A DNA stretch of 64,000 bases from Podarcis pityusensis (Eukaryota), in the NCBI GenBank assembly GCA_964106645.2, contig OZ067038.1; one strand, 5' to 3'. The position numbers and the translations under genes were made by a program. The notes under the pieces were generated by a model, which saw only the letters and a program-made list of their open reading frames with translations, made no database searches and was not told the origin of the DNA. Of the stretch, positions 8,501 to 40,700 are shown one piece after another. The first letter of the stretch is position 1, and each line of letters begins with the position of its first letter.

Positions 8501-10350
8501 AAAGCCCAGTGAGCTGAATGGAGGCACCTCCCTGATGCAAACTGAATCCAGTTTAAGGAGGCACAGTGGACACACAGAGCAGAAGAGTGACTCCCTTTTG
8601 CACACACACCCATGCAACCACCTGGCTCAGCTTTTTGTTTCCGCCCTCTTGCCAGCCGGGGTCCTTCCCCAGCACCTCTTCCTCCTACACCTAGAGGACA
8701 ATGTCTCCTCATTCTAAATTCTCTTGTTGCTGAAGCAGGCATGTAGAGAAGGATCAGATCCTGTCTCCCACCCCTGCCGCCAAACCTGTGGGTTCCAATG
8801 GAAGCTGTCCCACCTGAGCACAAATGGGATGCCTGCAAGATGGGGAGTTGCTGCCCATAGATTGGAGCCTACTTCCCAGGGGCTGTTGTGCCGTGCCTGG
8901 TCCCAAGGAGCTGTCCTTCTCTGGTACTGTCAGTAGTGATGCATCTCTGATTTTTCTCCCATCTTCTCTGCATCTCTGCCCTTCTGTGTCTGCCCTTCCT
9001 TCTTCCCCATCCCTGCTCCCACTCCTACCTCTCTCCTACCCCACTCTCTCTCTCTCTCTCCCCATCTCCACCCCCCTCTTTCTTTCTCGCTCTCTTTCTG
9101 ATCTTTCCCATCCCCAGATCCACCTGGTGGAGTCCGACCCCAACCACTTTGCCTCCCAGCTGGTGCAGACCTTCATCCACTATGACACCACAGACCACAA
9201 GAGGGATGAAGAGCATGCCCAGAAGCTGCTGGGGCTTGTGCAGGAGCGGGGCTTGCATCTGGACGGCTGCCTCTCCTACTGGGACGACTGCATGGTCCTG
9301 ACGGCACTGGTGTGCGAAGGGCTGGGCCTGCGCTGCAGCTCCCCGACAGCCATGCGCGTGGCCAAGCAGAAGAGCCGCACTCACCTGCACTTGCTGCGCC
9401 GTCGCAAAGAGGGGGCTCGCTGGCCCTCGGCAGCGCTCTATGCCGTGCCCTGCTGCCACCTAGAGAGCCACACGGATGTGGAGCGGGCTGCGAGCCACAT
9501 CAGCTTCCCTGGGGTCATGAAGCTAGAGTACGGGGCCGGGGCTGTGGGGGTCAAGCTGGTGGAGGATGCACAGCAGTGCCACCTGCACTTTGACAAGATC
9601 TCCAGGGACCTGCAGGATGACTCAGACCACCCGGGCATCGGGCTGGGCTGGGGCAACGCCATGCTGTTGATGGAGTATGTCTCTGGCACTGAGCACGACG
9701 TGGATCTGGTGATGTACGAAGGGCGGATGCTGGGGGCTTTTGTCTCTGACAACGGGCCCACCCGGGTGCCCAACTTCACCGAAACGGCAGCCTGCATGCC
9801 CACCTGCCTGCCCCCTGACCGTGAGGCGCAGCTCATCCGCGCTGCCTACCAGTGCTGCTTAGGCTGCGGCCTCACCGACGGCGTGTTCAACGTGGAGCTG
9901 AAGCTGACCGCATCCGGCCCCAAGCTCATCGAGATCAACCCCCGCATGGGCGGCTTCTACCTCCGCGACTGGATTCAGGAGATCTACGGCGTGGACATCA
10001 TGCTGGCCTCCGTCATGGTTGCCTGTGGGGTGGTCCCCCTCCTGCCTGCTCGCTCTTCCCCCCGCATGCACCTGGTGGGAGTGATGTGCTTGGTCTCGCA
10101 GCACTTGCAGGCCCTCAAGTCCACGGCCAGCCTGGAGACGCTCCAGGCCCTGCATGAGCGTGGCGTCATCCGCCTCAACCTGCTCGATGACGAGCTCGTG
10201 TCCAGCGAGTACGAGGAGCCCTACTGCAACGTGGCTTGTGCCAGCTCTAGCCGCCGCGAGGCCTGCCTCAAGCTGCTGGGCATCTGCCAGGTGCTGGGCA
10301 TCGACTCCCCACACTACCCTGTGGCCCACTTCCTCTCGCATTTCAAATAG
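2503..10350 (+). CDS. CARNS1: Carnosine synthase 1 (ATP-grasp ligase), last six coding exons: 2503-2990, 3263-3464, 4228-4313, 4830-5061, 6671-6942, 9118-10350; upstream exons not found in the window
   Basis: The spliced translation GNMLLCLSPAWL...VVVKPSGWRW...LAVRICAVVCRS...GAGGVSKKFVWEAARDYGL...PGVMKLEYGAGAVGV...EINPRMGGFYLRDW...YPVAHFLSHFK* matches human CARNS1 as recalled. All introns are GT-AG and phase-compatible. An in-frame ATG at 2508 gives about 835 aa. Confidence 0.96.
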
Positions 10351-21704: not shown

Positions 21705-23483
21705 TAATAATAATAATAATAATAATTTATTATTTATACCCCGCCCATCTGGCTGGGTTTCCCCAGCCACTCTGGGCGGCTTCCAAAAGAATATTAAAAT
21801 ACTATGATACATCAAACATTAAAAGCTTCCCTAAACAGGGCTGCCTTCAGATGTCTTCTAAAAGTCTGGTAGTTGTTGTTCTCTTTGACATCTGGTGGGA
21901 GGGCGTTCCACAGGGAGGGCGCCACTACCGAGAAGGCCCTCTGCCTGGTTCCCTGTAACTTGGCTTCTCGCAGTGAGGGAACCGCCAGAAGGCTCTCGGT
22001 GCTGGACCTCAGTGTCCGGGTAGAACGATGGAGGTGGAGACGCTCCTTCAGGTATACTGGACCGAGGCCGTTTAGGGCTTTAAAGGTCAGCACCAACACT
22101 TTGAATTGTGCTCGGAAACGTACTGGGAGCCAATGTAGGTCTTTCAAGACCGGTGTTATATGGTCTCGGCGGCTGTTCCCAGTCACCAGTCTGGCTGCTG
22201 CATTCTGGATTAGTTGTAGTTTCCGGGTCACCTTCAAAGGTAGCCCCACGTAGAGCGCATTGCAGTAGTCCAAGCGGGAGATAACCAGAGCATGCACCAC
22301 TCTGGCGAGGCAGTCCGCGGGCAGATAGGGTCTCAACCTACGTACCAGATGGAGCTGGTACACAGCTGCCCTGGACACGGATTTAACCTGTGCCTCCATG
22401 GACAGCTGTGAGTCCAAAATGACTCCCAGGCTGCGCACCTGGTCCTTCAGGGGCACGGTTACCCCATTCAGGACCAGGGAATCCCCCACACCTGCCCGCC
22501 TCCTGTCCCCCAGAAACAGTACTTCTGTCTTGTCAGGATTCAACCTCAATCTGTTTGCCGCCATCCATCCTCCAACCGCCTCCAGACACTCACACAGGAC
22601 CTTCACCGCCTTCACTGGTTCTGATTTAAAGGAGAGGTAGAGCTGGGTGTCATCTGCATACTGATGAACACCCAGTCCAAACCCCCTGATGATCTCTCCC
22701 AGCGGCTTCATATAGATATTAAAAAGCATGGGGGAGAGGACAGAACCCTGAGGCACCCCACAAGTGAGAGCCCAAGGGTCTGAACACTCATCCCCCACCA
22801 CCACTTTCTGAACACGGCCCAGGAGGAAGGAGCGGAACCACTGTATGACAGTGCCCCCAGCTCCCAGCCCCTCAAGACGGTCCAGAAGGATGTTATGGTC
22901 GATGGTATCAAACGCCGCTGAGAGATCCAGCAGAACTAGGAAACAGCTCTCACCTTTGTCCCTAGCCCGCCGGAGATCATCAACCAGTGCGACCAAGGCA
23001 GTTTCAGTCCCGTGATGAGGCCTGAATCCCGATTGGAAGGGATCCAAATGGTCCGCTTCTTCCAGGCGTGCCTGGAGTTGTTCAGCAACCACTCGCTCAA
23101 TCACCTTGCCCAGGAATGGAAGATTTGAGACTGGGCGATAGTTGGCCATCGTGGCCGCATCTAAAGATGGTTTTTTAAGAAGCGGTTTAATAACCGCCTC
23201 TTTCAGCGGGTCTGGGAAGGCTCCCTCACGGAGGGAAGCATTCACCACCCCACGAAGCCCATCGCCCAGCCCTTCCCGGCTAGCTTTTATAAGCCAGGAT
23301 GGGCAAGGATCAAGGAGACAGGTGGTTGGTTTCACTTGTCCAAGCAGCCTGTCCACATCCTCGGAGGTAACAGATTGGAATTGATCCCACACAATTTGAC
23401 TAGACAGGACTCTAGCACTCCCCCGCCCCGGCCCTGCTCCCACGGTGGCGTCTACCTCTTCCCGAATCTGAGCGACTTTATCT
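21705..23483 (-). mobile_element. 5'-truncated L2-clade LINE with an intact RT ORF (21812-23443)
   Basis: 543-aa open frame with NYRPVSNL, LLDLSAAFD, GVPQGSVLSP, YADD and the L2-type C-terminus (HITPVLKDLHWLP, WNALP). Short 3'UTR ending in a (TTA)n tail. Confidence 0.93.
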
Positions 23484-23622
23484 AGTCAGGTTGTGCAGTG
23501 ACACATGTGCTGACTTAAACTTACCCTCCATGCACCCACACTTCTTGGACTTTCAGGGCCAAATCTAGATGAGGATGGAGAGCAAAGATACCGCAAGTTG
23601 TCCTGACCTTAAGGAGCATATA

Positions 23623-24923: not shown

Positions 24924-37511
<12,588 letters not shown>

Positions 37512-37523
37512 GTAAGGGAGAGC

Positions 37524-37723
37524 NNNNNNNNNNNNNNNNNNNNNNNNNNNNNNNNNNNNNNNNNNNNNNNNNNNNNNNNNNNNNNNNNNNNNNNNNNNNN
37601 NNNNNNNNNNNNNNNNNNNNNNNNNNNNNNNNNNNNNNNNNNNNNNNNNNNNNNNNNNNNNNNNNNNNNNNNNNNNNNNNNNNNNNNNNNNNNNNNNNNN
37701 NNNNNNNNNNNNNNNNNNNNNNN
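37524..37723. other. Assembly gap (200 N)
   Basis: Run of exactly 200 N, typical of a fixed-size placeholder. Confidence 0.99.
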
Positions 37724-40700
37724 CCCTTGCCATCGGAGCACCAGACCCCCTCAGCAGGCGCCGGGGGTGGTACCTTCCTCCTGAATTGCGGCTCAGCCGA
37801 CGCCACGCCAGGAACAGCAAGAGGAGCAGCAGCAGCAGCAGGCAGACCAGGAAACTCACGACGGTGTCATCGCTGCTCTTGCCGCGGCCGCCCCCTCCCT
37901 CTGGAGCTGCTCCCATGGCTTTCCCTGGAAACAGCAGGAGCAGGGCAGAGAGCGCGTGGACGAACTGGGGTCTCTACAGAGAAAAAGGAGGCAGGATGAG
38001 TCCCTGCCCCAGCAATTTTAATATGACAAGGAGTCTTGAATGTTGGCCTGCTGTCTGCAGCTGTGGCGCTGCTCCCTGGGCTGTGTGGATCATGGAATCG
38101 TGCCCTGAAAACTCCCACTTGCACAGTGTTAATTGGACTCTGATGTAGATGTTAAGGAGGGATCATGGTGAAAAGAGCAGGGCACTGCCATTGCTCGGAA
38201 GCTGTCTTAGTTTTTAAAATGTTCACCAGCAACTGCCTGCATATATATATTTTTAACCTACATGCTGCAGCTAGGAGGGCTTGCAATTAAAGAAGACAAA
38301 AAAATGAGTTCCTGGCCTTGTGTGATGTTTGGGGATTTTATTGGATGCTGCAGTAGATCTGCTCATGGGGGGGCTTTGCATCATCGGTGGCAACTCGCAG
38401 ACCACTGGACATTTGCTGAAGTGCTATAATGTAAGAGGAGCAAGAGTGTGTGTGATTGTTTCCTAGTACAAGCTCCATTGATACAGTCATAAAGACATAT
38501 CCAGGTGGCGGAGGAGAAACTACAGCCAATAAGAGTTTTATAGCGAGTTGACTATAAATTATGCAGGCTTAAGAAAATGTGCATGCATATATATTTTTCT
38601 TGCATATTCCCCTGCTTTTTTTACGTAATTTATTTTGCTATGTTAGGGAGAGACAAGGAGCTATGTAGAGTCTTTGGAAGTCATCTTCAGTGACTACTGT
38701 GGTTTTGGAAATTCAGCAAGAATTTCTCATACTTATGATTGTGAAGATATGATAAAGCATGTACTTTTAAATATAAAAGTTGTGATTCTTTAGAAAGCTG
38801 AATTCTGTATACAAAGTCACCCTCAATTTAACCTCAACCTTTGCTTCAGAAGGCAGAACCTCTGTTTGGTGCTTTGGCCATTGGCAATTACTGTACTGTC
38901 TGCCCCAAATGACCTGAGGCTCAGTATGTCAGGTGAAGGAAAAAGATATATTTTCGCTAAGCCAGCATATGAAGGTAGACAGTGCCAATTATCAAGCTTT
39001 GTAGTTACCAAGAAAGAGCTGGTCCATTTAACTTGGGAAACATGGTGTTTCCGCCCGGGAACGAACCGGGGACCTTTCGCATGTGAGGGGTCCATTTAAC
39101 TTGGGCAGGTCTTGCTTCAGCTAATTTTATAGGGTGTGTTTGTCAAATGGTGAATGTCCTATTAGGCGTATGGAAGGAAGCGGGCTGTAGAAGCAGACTG
39201 CAGGGAGTTTTGGCTAACAGTTTGGTTTAATTGGCTGCTGCATAGCCACACCTCTGTCTTACACTGGCGCTAATGGAATACAGGCTGGGCAACAAGTCTG
39301 TTCCTTTCTTTTTCCTCCGTGTCACTGAAGCAAGGCCACTGAATATAATTCAGCAATGGAGGAAAAGGCTGGTGCCATCAAGGAAAGGGTAATCTGGGAG
39401 AATATTAGGACTGAACATGCAGGGAAAGGGAAGTTCCAAATCAATCTTGGGAGACAGCCTGCATAACTAAGCCTTAACTAACCTACACCTTGGATATTTG
39501 TGGTCTTCTGTGACCTGAAAGTAGTGAAGTAGTGTTAGGCAGAGAAAGCAGCAGCAAAGGAATCTAATGTTGAGGCAATGGGACAGGATAAGTCCCTGGC
39601 AGCACAGGAACAGCAAAGTCTTTTCCCACGTTCCACGATACTAATCAGCAAGGTATCTTTACAGGACTTCCAGTCTACTAACAGGATTTTTTTTGGGTTA
39701 GGGGGTGGTGGAGTAGAATAAAGTTAGGCTAGGAGACAAGACTTTGATAGAGCAGGTTTCCTACATTTTGAGGCTATTTTCTGAGGGTGCTGGATCTGTT
39801 TTCTGATCCGCTAAGTTCACATCTATACCAAAGCCAATGGTTGCCAGCCCTTTCAATAGGCACATTTGGAATCTGGAGTGAGTGTCACAAAATGGCTGCC
39901 ACATCTAAAAAATGCAGGCCCATAAAATGGTGCAGGCACCCCCCTCCTCAGTCAACGGGGGGGGGGGGGGAGCACAAATACCAGTCGCAGGGAAGCCCTT
40001 TGCAGAAGAAAGAGTGCATGTCTAGTCCTATCCTCCAATGAAATGGTATGTTTAAGGATGTATGCTAAGTGAAGGAGAGTCTGAGCCAATACACACCGGA
40101 AGTGCAAATGTTAGGGTGTTTTTTTTAGGGGGGTATTTCTAGAGACCTTTTGTGGGCATGTGCACTAGTGAAACCTTGGGGTTGTATTCAAAGTTGTGCC
40201 AAAGAGATCTATCCCATCAGCACAAGGATTTATCATGTGACACAGCATTGTCCCACTCCTCTCTCTGTGCCCCGCATAAATCTAATGTATTTAGTTCAAT
40301 ACCACCTCATTTGCTGTGTGCCTTGCAGCCTTGGTACTCTCACTTCTAAGAACTTGTCCTCTGCATGTTTAGAAGAGAGCAGCCATCTGGCGCCATCAAG
40401 TCCCACAAGCAGCACAACGTGAACATTAGCAAATGGCTGCAGCAGCAGCTTTCTTTGAAAGGTTGCAGGCCTTTGCAACCGGTTGCTTGCTCCTTTACGC
40501 AGAGAAAGTAACTGTAAGAGCAAGAGCATCGAAAGGCCTGTGAGGGAGAAAAGAGGCCACGGGATGGACGTTGCCACTAGGGTAGCCCCTGCAGCAAATT
40601 ATCATCAGCTTCCATTTTAGTTTGGGGATCAGGAGGGAGTGGCCCTCCAGGATTCCAACTCCCATCAGCCCTAGGCAGCATAGCCAAAGGGCAGGAATCA

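What the first reader, a model, noticed from the sequence alone, without database searches (positions are those of the whole stretch)
39021..39105. Genomic fossil of a reverse-transcribed mature tRNA-Val 3' half, with CCA, a possible m1A58 misread and a template-jump junction
Seen: a 51-bp insert (39038-39088) between perfect 17-bp direct repeats, with no poly(A). It consists of the tRNA-Val(CAC) 3' half, from the anticodon loop to the CCA, plus an extra TGTTT. Established: eukaryotic CCA is added post-transcriptionally, and m1A58 causes RT misincorporation. Here the T-loop reads TTCGTTC, with T at the A58 position. Inference: the template was a mature, modified tRNA. The cDNA strand reads target-GG, AAAC, A, TGG..., which fits priming by GG pairing with the tRNA 5' GUUUCC, copying to G1, adding one untemplated A, then jumping across the acceptor stem to the CCA end. 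An alternative is a tRNA primer carrying the first 5 nt of an LTR (..AAACA|TGG = U5/PBS). Described tailless tRNA retropseudogenes are mostly 5' portions, so this geometry is unusual. The TSD length is similar to those of the Sauria SINEs here, hinting at the RTE/BovB machinery.
Basis: partly seen in the sequence, partly recalled or inferred. Interest (0 to 1): 0.7.

Follow-up and report, generated by a model that had tools for sequence, protein, structure and literature searches.

The report
tRNA retrocopy with methylation misread scar
A 46-base piece of the processed end of a valine tRNA sits in this lizard-type genome between two identical 17-base repeats, and it carries a one-letter change at the position of a known tRNA methyl mark, likely a copying error made when a reverse transcriptase pasted the RNA into DNA; several other tRNA fragments in the same genome show the same change.

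Summary
Observation confirmed. The insert is tRNA-Val(CAC) positions 31-73 + CCA + a 5-nt linker between perfect 17-bp repeats. The likely parent gene has A58 and no encoded CCA; the insert differs only at C38T (CpG) and A58T. T58 is shared by all four organisms whose contigs were laid. It is part of a small class: 6 of 14 CCA-ended tRNA copies have non-A at 58, against 9 of 322 other non-CpG sites (p=6.5e-6; copies picked partly by eye). dATP opposite m1A-U is the published RT error. So 'mature, m1A58-modified template' is well supported (~0.85). The LTR-primer and BovB ideas were not supported. No empty site was seen, so the TSD reading is inferred. The scan noted a similar A58T retrocopy in a mammal before. 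Side finding: lone Gypsy LTRs with primer-tRNA sequence read past position 58. Probably neutral DNA; interesting as a fossil of RNA modification.

The parts
39021..39037 (.). 17-bp direct repeat next to the CCA end (likely target site duplication; the + strand 3' GG would be the primer end)
   Evidence: unchanged in contigs of 4 of 4 runs laid; not a repeat-family sequence
39038..39042 (-). 5-nt linker TGTTT; with the next 2 repeat bases it is the exact reverse complement of tRNA positions 67-73, and equally T + tRNA positions 1-6
   Evidence: folds as a 7-bp hairpin with a CCA loop over 39036-39052, -5.9 kcal/mol
39043..39045 (-). CCA end, not encoded in any Val gene found
   Evidence: 0 of 10 genes followed by CCA
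39046..39088 (-). tRNA-Val(CAC) positions 31-73; likely parent is the gene in L021 (41 of 43 identical)
39061..39061 (-). T at position 58 (A in the parent gene): likely m1A58 misread
   Evidence: no other letter in 4 of 4 runs
39081..39081 (-). T at position 38 (C in the parent, in a CpG): likely later CpG decay
   Evidence: also shared by 4 of 4 runs
39089..39105 (.). second copy of the 17-bp repeat; joins tRNA position 31 without microhomology

Best explanation
This is a tRNA-Val(CAC) 3' fragment with CCA, T at position 58 and a short inverted tail between 17-bp repeats, likely a retrocopy that a non-LTR retrotransposon reverse transcriptase made from a mature, m1A58-modified tRNA piece. 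Shown: the anatomy, the parent gene with A58 and no CCA, and the genome-wide excess of changes at position 58. Inferred steps: (1) the template was a 3' fragment (31-76), or copying ended at 31; (2) its CCA-OH end was first extended by TGTTT(CC), copied from base 73 backwards on itself or on a CCA-less tRNA-Val (self- or cross-priming); (3) the target's GG-3' end paired with the new CC and primed copying back through the tail, CCA and T arm, putting dA opposite m1A58; (4) run-off at base 31 and second-strand repair of a 17-nt staggered break gave the repeats. The enzyme is unassigned. The insert is likely neutral. Confidence in the core (mature modified template, misread at 58) is about 0.85; the figure given is for the whole path.
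For: Parent gene differs at 2 of 43 positions, one a CpG. Position 58 changed in 6 of 14 CCA-ended copies against 9 of 322 other non-CpG sites and 0 of 76 other A sites, Fisher p=6.5e-6; 6 of 16, p=1.6e-5, with two Asp copies added; 4 of 14, p=1.1e-3, if the Leu and Gly cases are scored as unchanged. In the Ser search position 58 varied in 3 of 7 matches (2 of 6 events) and position 59 in 0 of 7. The parent reads A58-U59, and m1A-U gives efficient dATP misincorporation (PMC4787781, passages). A Gypsy-type family here stops matching its primer tRNA at position 59/58 in 28 of the first 30 loci, as expected if A58 is modified. The tail needs no untemplated base if copied from base 73. Self- and cross-priming of RNA templates by an R2-type RT is stated in PMC8594491 (passages). 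The 5' junction has no microhomology, as for run-off. Weak: the Asn copy has 1 extra base + 3 nt matching the inverted 3' end, and one of three Leu paralogues 1 + 4 nt.
Against: No empty site was seen: all 4 runs laid carry the insert, so the repeats are not shown to be a TSD. The cut site matches neither the L1 consensus TTTT/AA (PMC2912911, passages) nor the BovB/Sauria Tn-TA pattern. Priming in cis with a 3-nt loop and no starting base pair is sterically strained; in trans it needs a CCA-less tRNA-Val. The hairpin would also hide the CC that must pair with the target. No second exact junction of this kind was found among the 13 other copies compared; Gly, Ala and two of three Leu paralogues show none. 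C38T is also shared by all four organisms, so at least one ordinary mutation fell on the same early branch as T58. The class count used by-eye selection and an ungapped extension that lowers the background.
Confidence: 0.42

Rival explanations
1. Template jump: the target GG primed on the 5' strand of a whole tRNA, copied to G1, added one A, then jumped to the displaced CCA end and copied to base 31. Same core, different tail.
For: Fits the letters exactly. Works in cis on one molecule; A is the favoured untemplated base, and R2-type RTs jump only on reaching a template 5' end (PMC8594491).
Against: Needs 2-bp priming inside the paired acceptor stem and an A overhang jumping to a 3'-A template; a +1 overhang suppresses non-complementary templates and high dATP suppresses jumping. 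Needs an unexplained stop at 31. The Asn tail does not follow its tRNA 5' end.
Confidence: 0.27
2. A free cDNA of the mature tRNA (made by any RT, including an LTR-element RT) was captured at a staggered break, and a repair polymerase such as Pol theta made the 5-nt inverted tail by brief synthesis on the cDNA before joining.
For: No L1 or BovB cut-site signature. The Asn copy has 22 extra nt that resemble its flank, like a templated repair insertion. Read-through tRNA cDNA is made in this genome at LTR ends.
Against: A clean 17-bp duplication without deletion is more typical of endonuclease-primed insertion (known pattern; TSD peak 14-16 bp in PMC2912911). Copying on the cDNA should run on through CCA, not stop 3 nt short.
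Confidence: 0.16
3. The piece is a tRNA-Val primer with the first 5 nt of an LTR end, i.e. a broken plus-strand strong-stop product.
For: The + strand reads CA directly before TGG, as at LTR/primer-site junctions. Ser- and Leu-primed read-through products next to LTR ends exist here.
Against: The exact 14-mer gave 4 matches, 3 of them unrelated to tRNA; a CpG-tolerant 16-mer gave 10, 9 unrelated. The flank matches nothing else and the junction 18-mer has only 8 one-mismatch hits with unrelated flanks. In the LTR cases the repeat includes the terminal CA; here it does not. It leaves the 7-of-7 inverted match as coincidence.
Confidence: 0.07
4. A real retrocopy, but T58 is an ordinary later mutation.
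For: One site, one event; C38T also arose before the four organisms split; other non-CpG sites in the class differ at 2.8%.
Against: The only non-CpG change in 43 nt falls on 58, is the change predicted for m1A-U, and recurs in other copies.
Confidence: 0.08

Closest known systems
Tailless retropseudogenes (Schmitz et al. 2004, not held; Noll et al. 2015, PMC5322556, passages read; Kojima 2010, PMC2912911, passages read)
   Same: tRNA-derived, no oligo(A), flanked by direct repeats, 2-nt possible pairing with the target (2-18 nt reported); reported in the green anole.
   Different: Those are 3'-truncated at loops and primed internally. This keeps the mature 3' end with CCA, is 5'-truncated and has an inverted tail. 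'CCA' did not occur in the main text of PMC5322556.
CCA-bearing tRNA retropseudogenes (mouse tRNA-Phe pseudogene, Reilly et al. 1982; recalled, not retrieved)
   Same: A genomic copy of a mature tRNA 3' end, taken as proof of an RNA template.
   Different: No misread at 58 or inverted tail that I recall; not checked.
tRNA/LINE-1 chimeras with tRNA halves (bioRxiv 10.1101/2025.02.02.635956, passages read)
   Same: Half-length tRNA pieces inserted with 9-19 bp TSDs; pre-cut halves proposed as templates.
   Different: Those are fused to L1, mostly positions 1-37 and antisense; no LINE part here.
m1A58 stop and read-through on primer tRNA in retroviral plus-strand synthesis (PMC8599865, passages read)
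   Same: RT meets m1A58 when copying from the CCA end; stops or reads through.
   Different: Here the product is fixed in the germline at a unique, non-LTR site.
RT signature of m1A (PMC4787781; mim-tRNAseq PMC8062790; passages read)
   Same: A-to-T read at m1A followed by U.
   Different: In vitro enzymes; here recorded in genomic DNA by an unknown enzyme.

Membership tests
tRNA retropseudogene (RNA-templated copy) | Post-transcriptional feature absent from the genes (CCA) | tested here: met
   0 of 10 Val genes encode CCA
tRNA retropseudogene (RNA-templated copy) | Flanking direct repeats of TSD length | tested here: met
   17 of 17 bp, beyond chance
tRNA retropseudogene (RNA-templated copy) | Empty orthologous site with one copy of the repeat | tested here: inconclusive
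Tailless retropseudogenes | No oligo(A) tail | tested here: met
Tailless retropseudogenes | 3' truncation at a loop or single-stranded region | tested here: not met
   3' end complete with CCA; truncation is 5'
Tailless retropseudogenes | Target complementary to the RNA's terminal 2-18 nt | tested here: inconclusive
   2-nt overlap, but with the inverted tail, not the tRNA end
L1-mediated insertion | TTTT/AA endonuclease site | tested here: not met
   cut would fall in CTTGGG/CAGG
RTE/BovB-mediated insertion | TSD length like Sauria-type SINEs in this genome | tested here: met
   11 of 12 SINE TSDs of 9 nt or more are 10-18 nt (22 copies examined)
RTE/BovB-mediated insertion | Tn-TA signature (TSD starts with T/A, T run about 10 nt upstream; PMC13295347 section 11) | tested here: not met
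   TSD starts with C (G in the other orientation), no TTT upstream; 10 of 12 SINE TSDs start with T, though only 4 of 12 had the T run
LTR primer-binding-site junction | A repeated LTR ending next to a Val primer site | tested here: not met
m1A58 misread | Excess of changes at 58 among CCA-ended copies | tested here: met
   6 of 14 vs 9 of 322
m1A58 misread | Parent tRNA is methylated at A58 in germ cells | not testable with these tools
   needs tRNA-seq or mass spectrometry; indirect support from primer-site ends

The most novel reading that the evidence does not exclude
Genomes hold a readable fossil record of tRNA modification: CCA-ended tRNA retrocopies keep RT errors at m1A58 (T, G or a skipped base), the error type may fingerprint the enzyme (T in 4 of 5 short copies at non-LTR sites; T, G or a skip at Gypsy LTR ends), and tail-less mature tRNA ends can be made insertable by an inverted copy of their own acceptor strand, a route not described for retrocopies.
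Probability: 0.35. Interest if true: 0.65.

Novelty: new variant of a known kind. Interest (0 to 1): 0.45.

Why it matters
The insert itself is probably neutral. It matters as a record. If the T58 reading holds, genomic tRNA fragments show that a germline RNA modification existed when the copy was made, and how the reverse transcriptase of that time handled it. That can be screened in any assembled genome without RNA. It also shows that mature tRNA 3' ends, not only 5' parts or A-tailed forms, get inserted. The inverted tail points to an RT activity (self-priming or jumping) known mainly in vitro. Five paper searches aimed at this combination found no description, but most subscription and older papers are not held.

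Tried and rejected
ARAGORN and Rfam on the window found no tRNA: the fragment is too short. DNA search with 751 nt found only the tRNA genes; this search skips common words, so rarity was checked by exact patterns too. A gene or SINE with T58 or encoded CCA-TGTTT: not found; Val genes differing within the 17-mer pattern would be missed. Val-primed LTR family: not found. BovB and L1 cut-site signatures: not met. Twin priming as in inverted L1s was rejected by reasoning, because a tRNA template gives only antisense cDNA from either end. A circularised tRNA would give CCA joined directly to G1, without the extra T. Pre-tRNA leader as source of the extra T: 0 of 10 genes have T at -1. Empty site: not seen in 4 runs; more distant organisms remain unexamined. 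Most hits of the generic T-loop+CCA patterns are chance or SINE/LINE repeats; for the non-A pattern the reversed control (381) exceeded the real count (102). Schmitz 2004 (PMC524414) is not held. The recalled 1982 mouse CCA pseudogene paper was not retrieved. No supplements were read; those of PMC5322556 and of the 2025 preprint may list 3' fragments of this kind.

Full report
1. Observation. The sequence is as described. A perfect 17-nt direct repeat lies at 39021-39037 and 39089-39105. In 100 Markov-simulated windows the longest repeat within 150 nt was 15 nt, once. The 51 nt between read, on the minus strand, tRNA-Val(CAC) positions 31-73, CCA and TGTTT. The window is G000:C1:84630001-84694000 of a 1.5-Gb genome.

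2. Parent gene. A 17-nt pattern from the fragment had 11 matches: this locus and 10 Val genes. All 10 have A58, none is followed by CCA, none has T at -1. Only the gene in L021 has the same T loop and acceptor stem; the insert differs from it at 2 of 43 positions, C38T (CpG) and A58T. One other gene (L016) has T38 but differs elsewhere.

3. Age and relatives. Twenty public DNA runs of 11 coded organisms hold the stretch. I laid 4 of the 20 (organisms A, B, C, E). All carry the insert, both repeats unchanged, and no other letter at 39061 (position 58) or 39081 (position 38). The only changes inside the insert are at CpG sites 39052, 39063 and 39068. So the insertion and both differences predate these lineages. 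No empty site was seen, and more distant organisms were not examined, so 'TSD' is inferred from anatomy.

4. Is T58 a misread? One site cannot prove it, so I looked for a class. T-loop + 11 nt + CCA patterns gave 102 matches with non-A at 58 (100 listed) and 140 with A (all listed across). I read 95 regions of these 242 in context; the rest I judged by eye from the 25-mer, partly against recalled tRNA ends. Fourteen independent CCA-ended copies with a parent gene in hand were compared (one, L157, came). Left out: the second arm of a palindrome (L053), two paralogues of the Leu copy (L118, L119), two Asp copies without a fetched parent (both A58), SINE heads, and hits on bacterial-looking contigs. 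Position 58 differed in 6 of 14 (Val T, Asn T, Ser T, Ser G, Gly T, Leu T), against 9 of 322 other non-CpG sites and 0 of 76 other A sites; Fisher p=6.5e-6. With the Asp copies: 6 of 16, p=1.6e-5. Scoring the two weakest (Leu, only 22 nt; Gly, whose CCA may be gene-encoded as in L082) as unchanged: 4 of 14, p=1.1e-3. The ungapped extension lowers the background somewhat. A Ser-only search with 58 and 59 both free gave 7 matches, 3 changed at 58 and 0 at 59. PMC4787781 (passages) states that m1A followed by U gives very efficient dATP misincorporation; the parent reads A58-U59, so T is the predicted letter. A Gypsy-type family with a Ser primer site (143 junctions) stops matching the tRNA at 59/58 in 28 of the first 30 loci, the stop assigned to m1A58 in HIV-1 (PMC8599865, passages). 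I put the misread at about 0.85-0.9.

5. The tail. TGTTT plus the first two repeat bases is the exact reverse complement of positions 67-73; a 5-of-5 match at a given register has about 1 chance in 1000. The segment folds as a 7-bp hairpin with a CCA loop. Because the acceptor stem is self-complementary, the same letters equal T + positions 1-6. Copying from base 73 needs no untemplated base, fits a pre-cut 3' fragment and the microhomology-free 5' junction, and self-/cross-priming by this RT is stated in the same paper. Against it: a 3-nt loop with no starting pair is strained, and the hairpin hides the pairing CC. Other copies help little. The Asn tail has one extra base and 3 nt matching the inverted 3' end but not the 5' end; one of three Leu paralogues has one extra base and 4 nt; Gly and Ala show nothing. 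I give self/cross-priming 0.42, jump 0.27, repair-polymerase tail 0.16.

6. LTR primer and BovB. No Val primer-site family: 3 other matches of the 14-mer and 9 of a CpG-tolerant 16-mer were unrelated to tRNA upstream. The flank is not repeated. Of 22 Sauria-type SINE copies in my loci, 12 had a repeat of 9 nt or more; 11 were 10-18 nt and 10 began with T, as in PMC13295347 (section 11). This site begins with C and lacks the T run. It is not an L1 site either. The enzyme stays unassigned.

7. Context. The window holds an ATP-grasp gene, kinase exons at about 24.9-36.1 kb and a minus-strand exon near 37.7-38.0 kb encoding a single-pass membrane protein; I recall these as CARNS1, RPS6KB2 and PTPRCAP. 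The insert lies about 1.1 kb upstream of that exon, probably intronic. It lacks the A box, so it cannot be a tRNA gene; CpG decay in relatives fits neutrality.

8. Known kinds. It works like a tailless retropseudogene but fails their 3'-truncation feature (PMC5322556, PMC2912911, passages). tRNA halves in L1 chimeras are mostly 5' halves (2025 preprint, passages). CCA-bearing tRNA pseudogenes are old knowledge (recalled; not retrieved). Searches found no paper on m1A58 scars in genomic copies or on the LTR structures below; I saw only their listings, and the library lacks most subscription papers. The scan noted a poly(A)-tailed tRNA-Phe 3' copy with A58T in a mammal (e1-7856022); I did not test it.

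9. Side finding. Eight of the 14 copies (seven Ser, one Leu) sit at LTR ends with the primer-site match running past 58. L184 (found, base 58 skipped) and L156 are lone LTRs followed by primer site, extra tRNA sequence and a second copy of the LTR's last bases, with 5-bp target duplications. L050, L084 and L157 have the same layout without a clear duplication. These look like integrated plus-strand strong-stop DNA that read through m1A58. The window's insert is not of this type.

10. Verdict. A real, probably neutral retrocopy of a mature modified tRNA end; a new variant of a known kind; interest 0.45. The class-level scar is the best-supported novelty; the tail mechanism is open.

Noticed in passing
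L184 (G000:C2:107350020), L156 (C11:10965089), L050 (C5:14862872), L084 (C6:28687598), L157 (C18:10166957): Lone Gypsy-type LTR + Ser primer site + tRNA sequence copied past position 58 + second copy of the LTR's last 8-18 nt ending in CA. 5-bp target duplications in L184 and L156, unclear in the other three. Looks like integrated read-through plus-strand strong-stop DNA that regained an integrase end by switching back to U5. Not found in print or in earlier notes.
   Followed up: partly
L053/L054 (G000:C6:2944465-2944550): Perfect 172-nt palindrome: LTR end, primer site and tRNA-Ser read-through on both arms, G at position 58 in both.
   Followed up: partly
L065 (C2:13626477); L069 (C2:109681016): L065: LTR end, primer site, read-through, then an LTR start, like a circle junction that kept tRNA sequence. 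L069: 48 nt of tRNA-Leu(AAG) + CCA between inverted copies of an LTR-like end.
   Followed up: partly
L158-L187: The base right after the 18-nt Ser primer site (opposite tRNA position 58) varies among copies: C 19, G 6, T 4 of 29; both Ser isodecoders appear as primer sites.
   Followed up: no
L029 (G000:C1:15253089): tRNA-Asn positions 44-76 with T58, 7-nt tail, 22 extra nt upstream and a 13-bp direct repeat: the closest sibling of the window's insert.
   Followed up: partly
L082 (C5:85729440), L188 (C20:50676396): Near full-length Gly(TCC) and Asp(GTC) copies followed by CCA, A58 kept, no flanking repeat: genes with chance CCA or older retrocopies.
   Followed up: no
L189-L191 (G000:C88, C86, C252): Small contigs with 54-56% GC and CCA-ended, bacterial- or phage-like RNA ends; C252 has a cluster of 5 tRNA calls in 1.3 kb. 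Likely contamination or a symbiont in the assembly.
   Followed up: no
window 8818-10350 (+), about 24930-36170 (+), about 37410-37980 (-), 21812-23485 (-): ATP-grasp exon, protein kinase exons, a single-pass membrane protein exon (recalled as CARNS1, RPS6KB2, PTPRCAP) and a LINE reverse transcriptase frame of 557 aa.
   Followed up: partly
G000:C19:35.08-37.25 Mb; C20:455-462 kb: A 25-mer recurs about every 90-100 kb on C19 (12 matches), and T-loop-like repeats cluster on C20 and C59: large tandem arrays.
   Followed up: no
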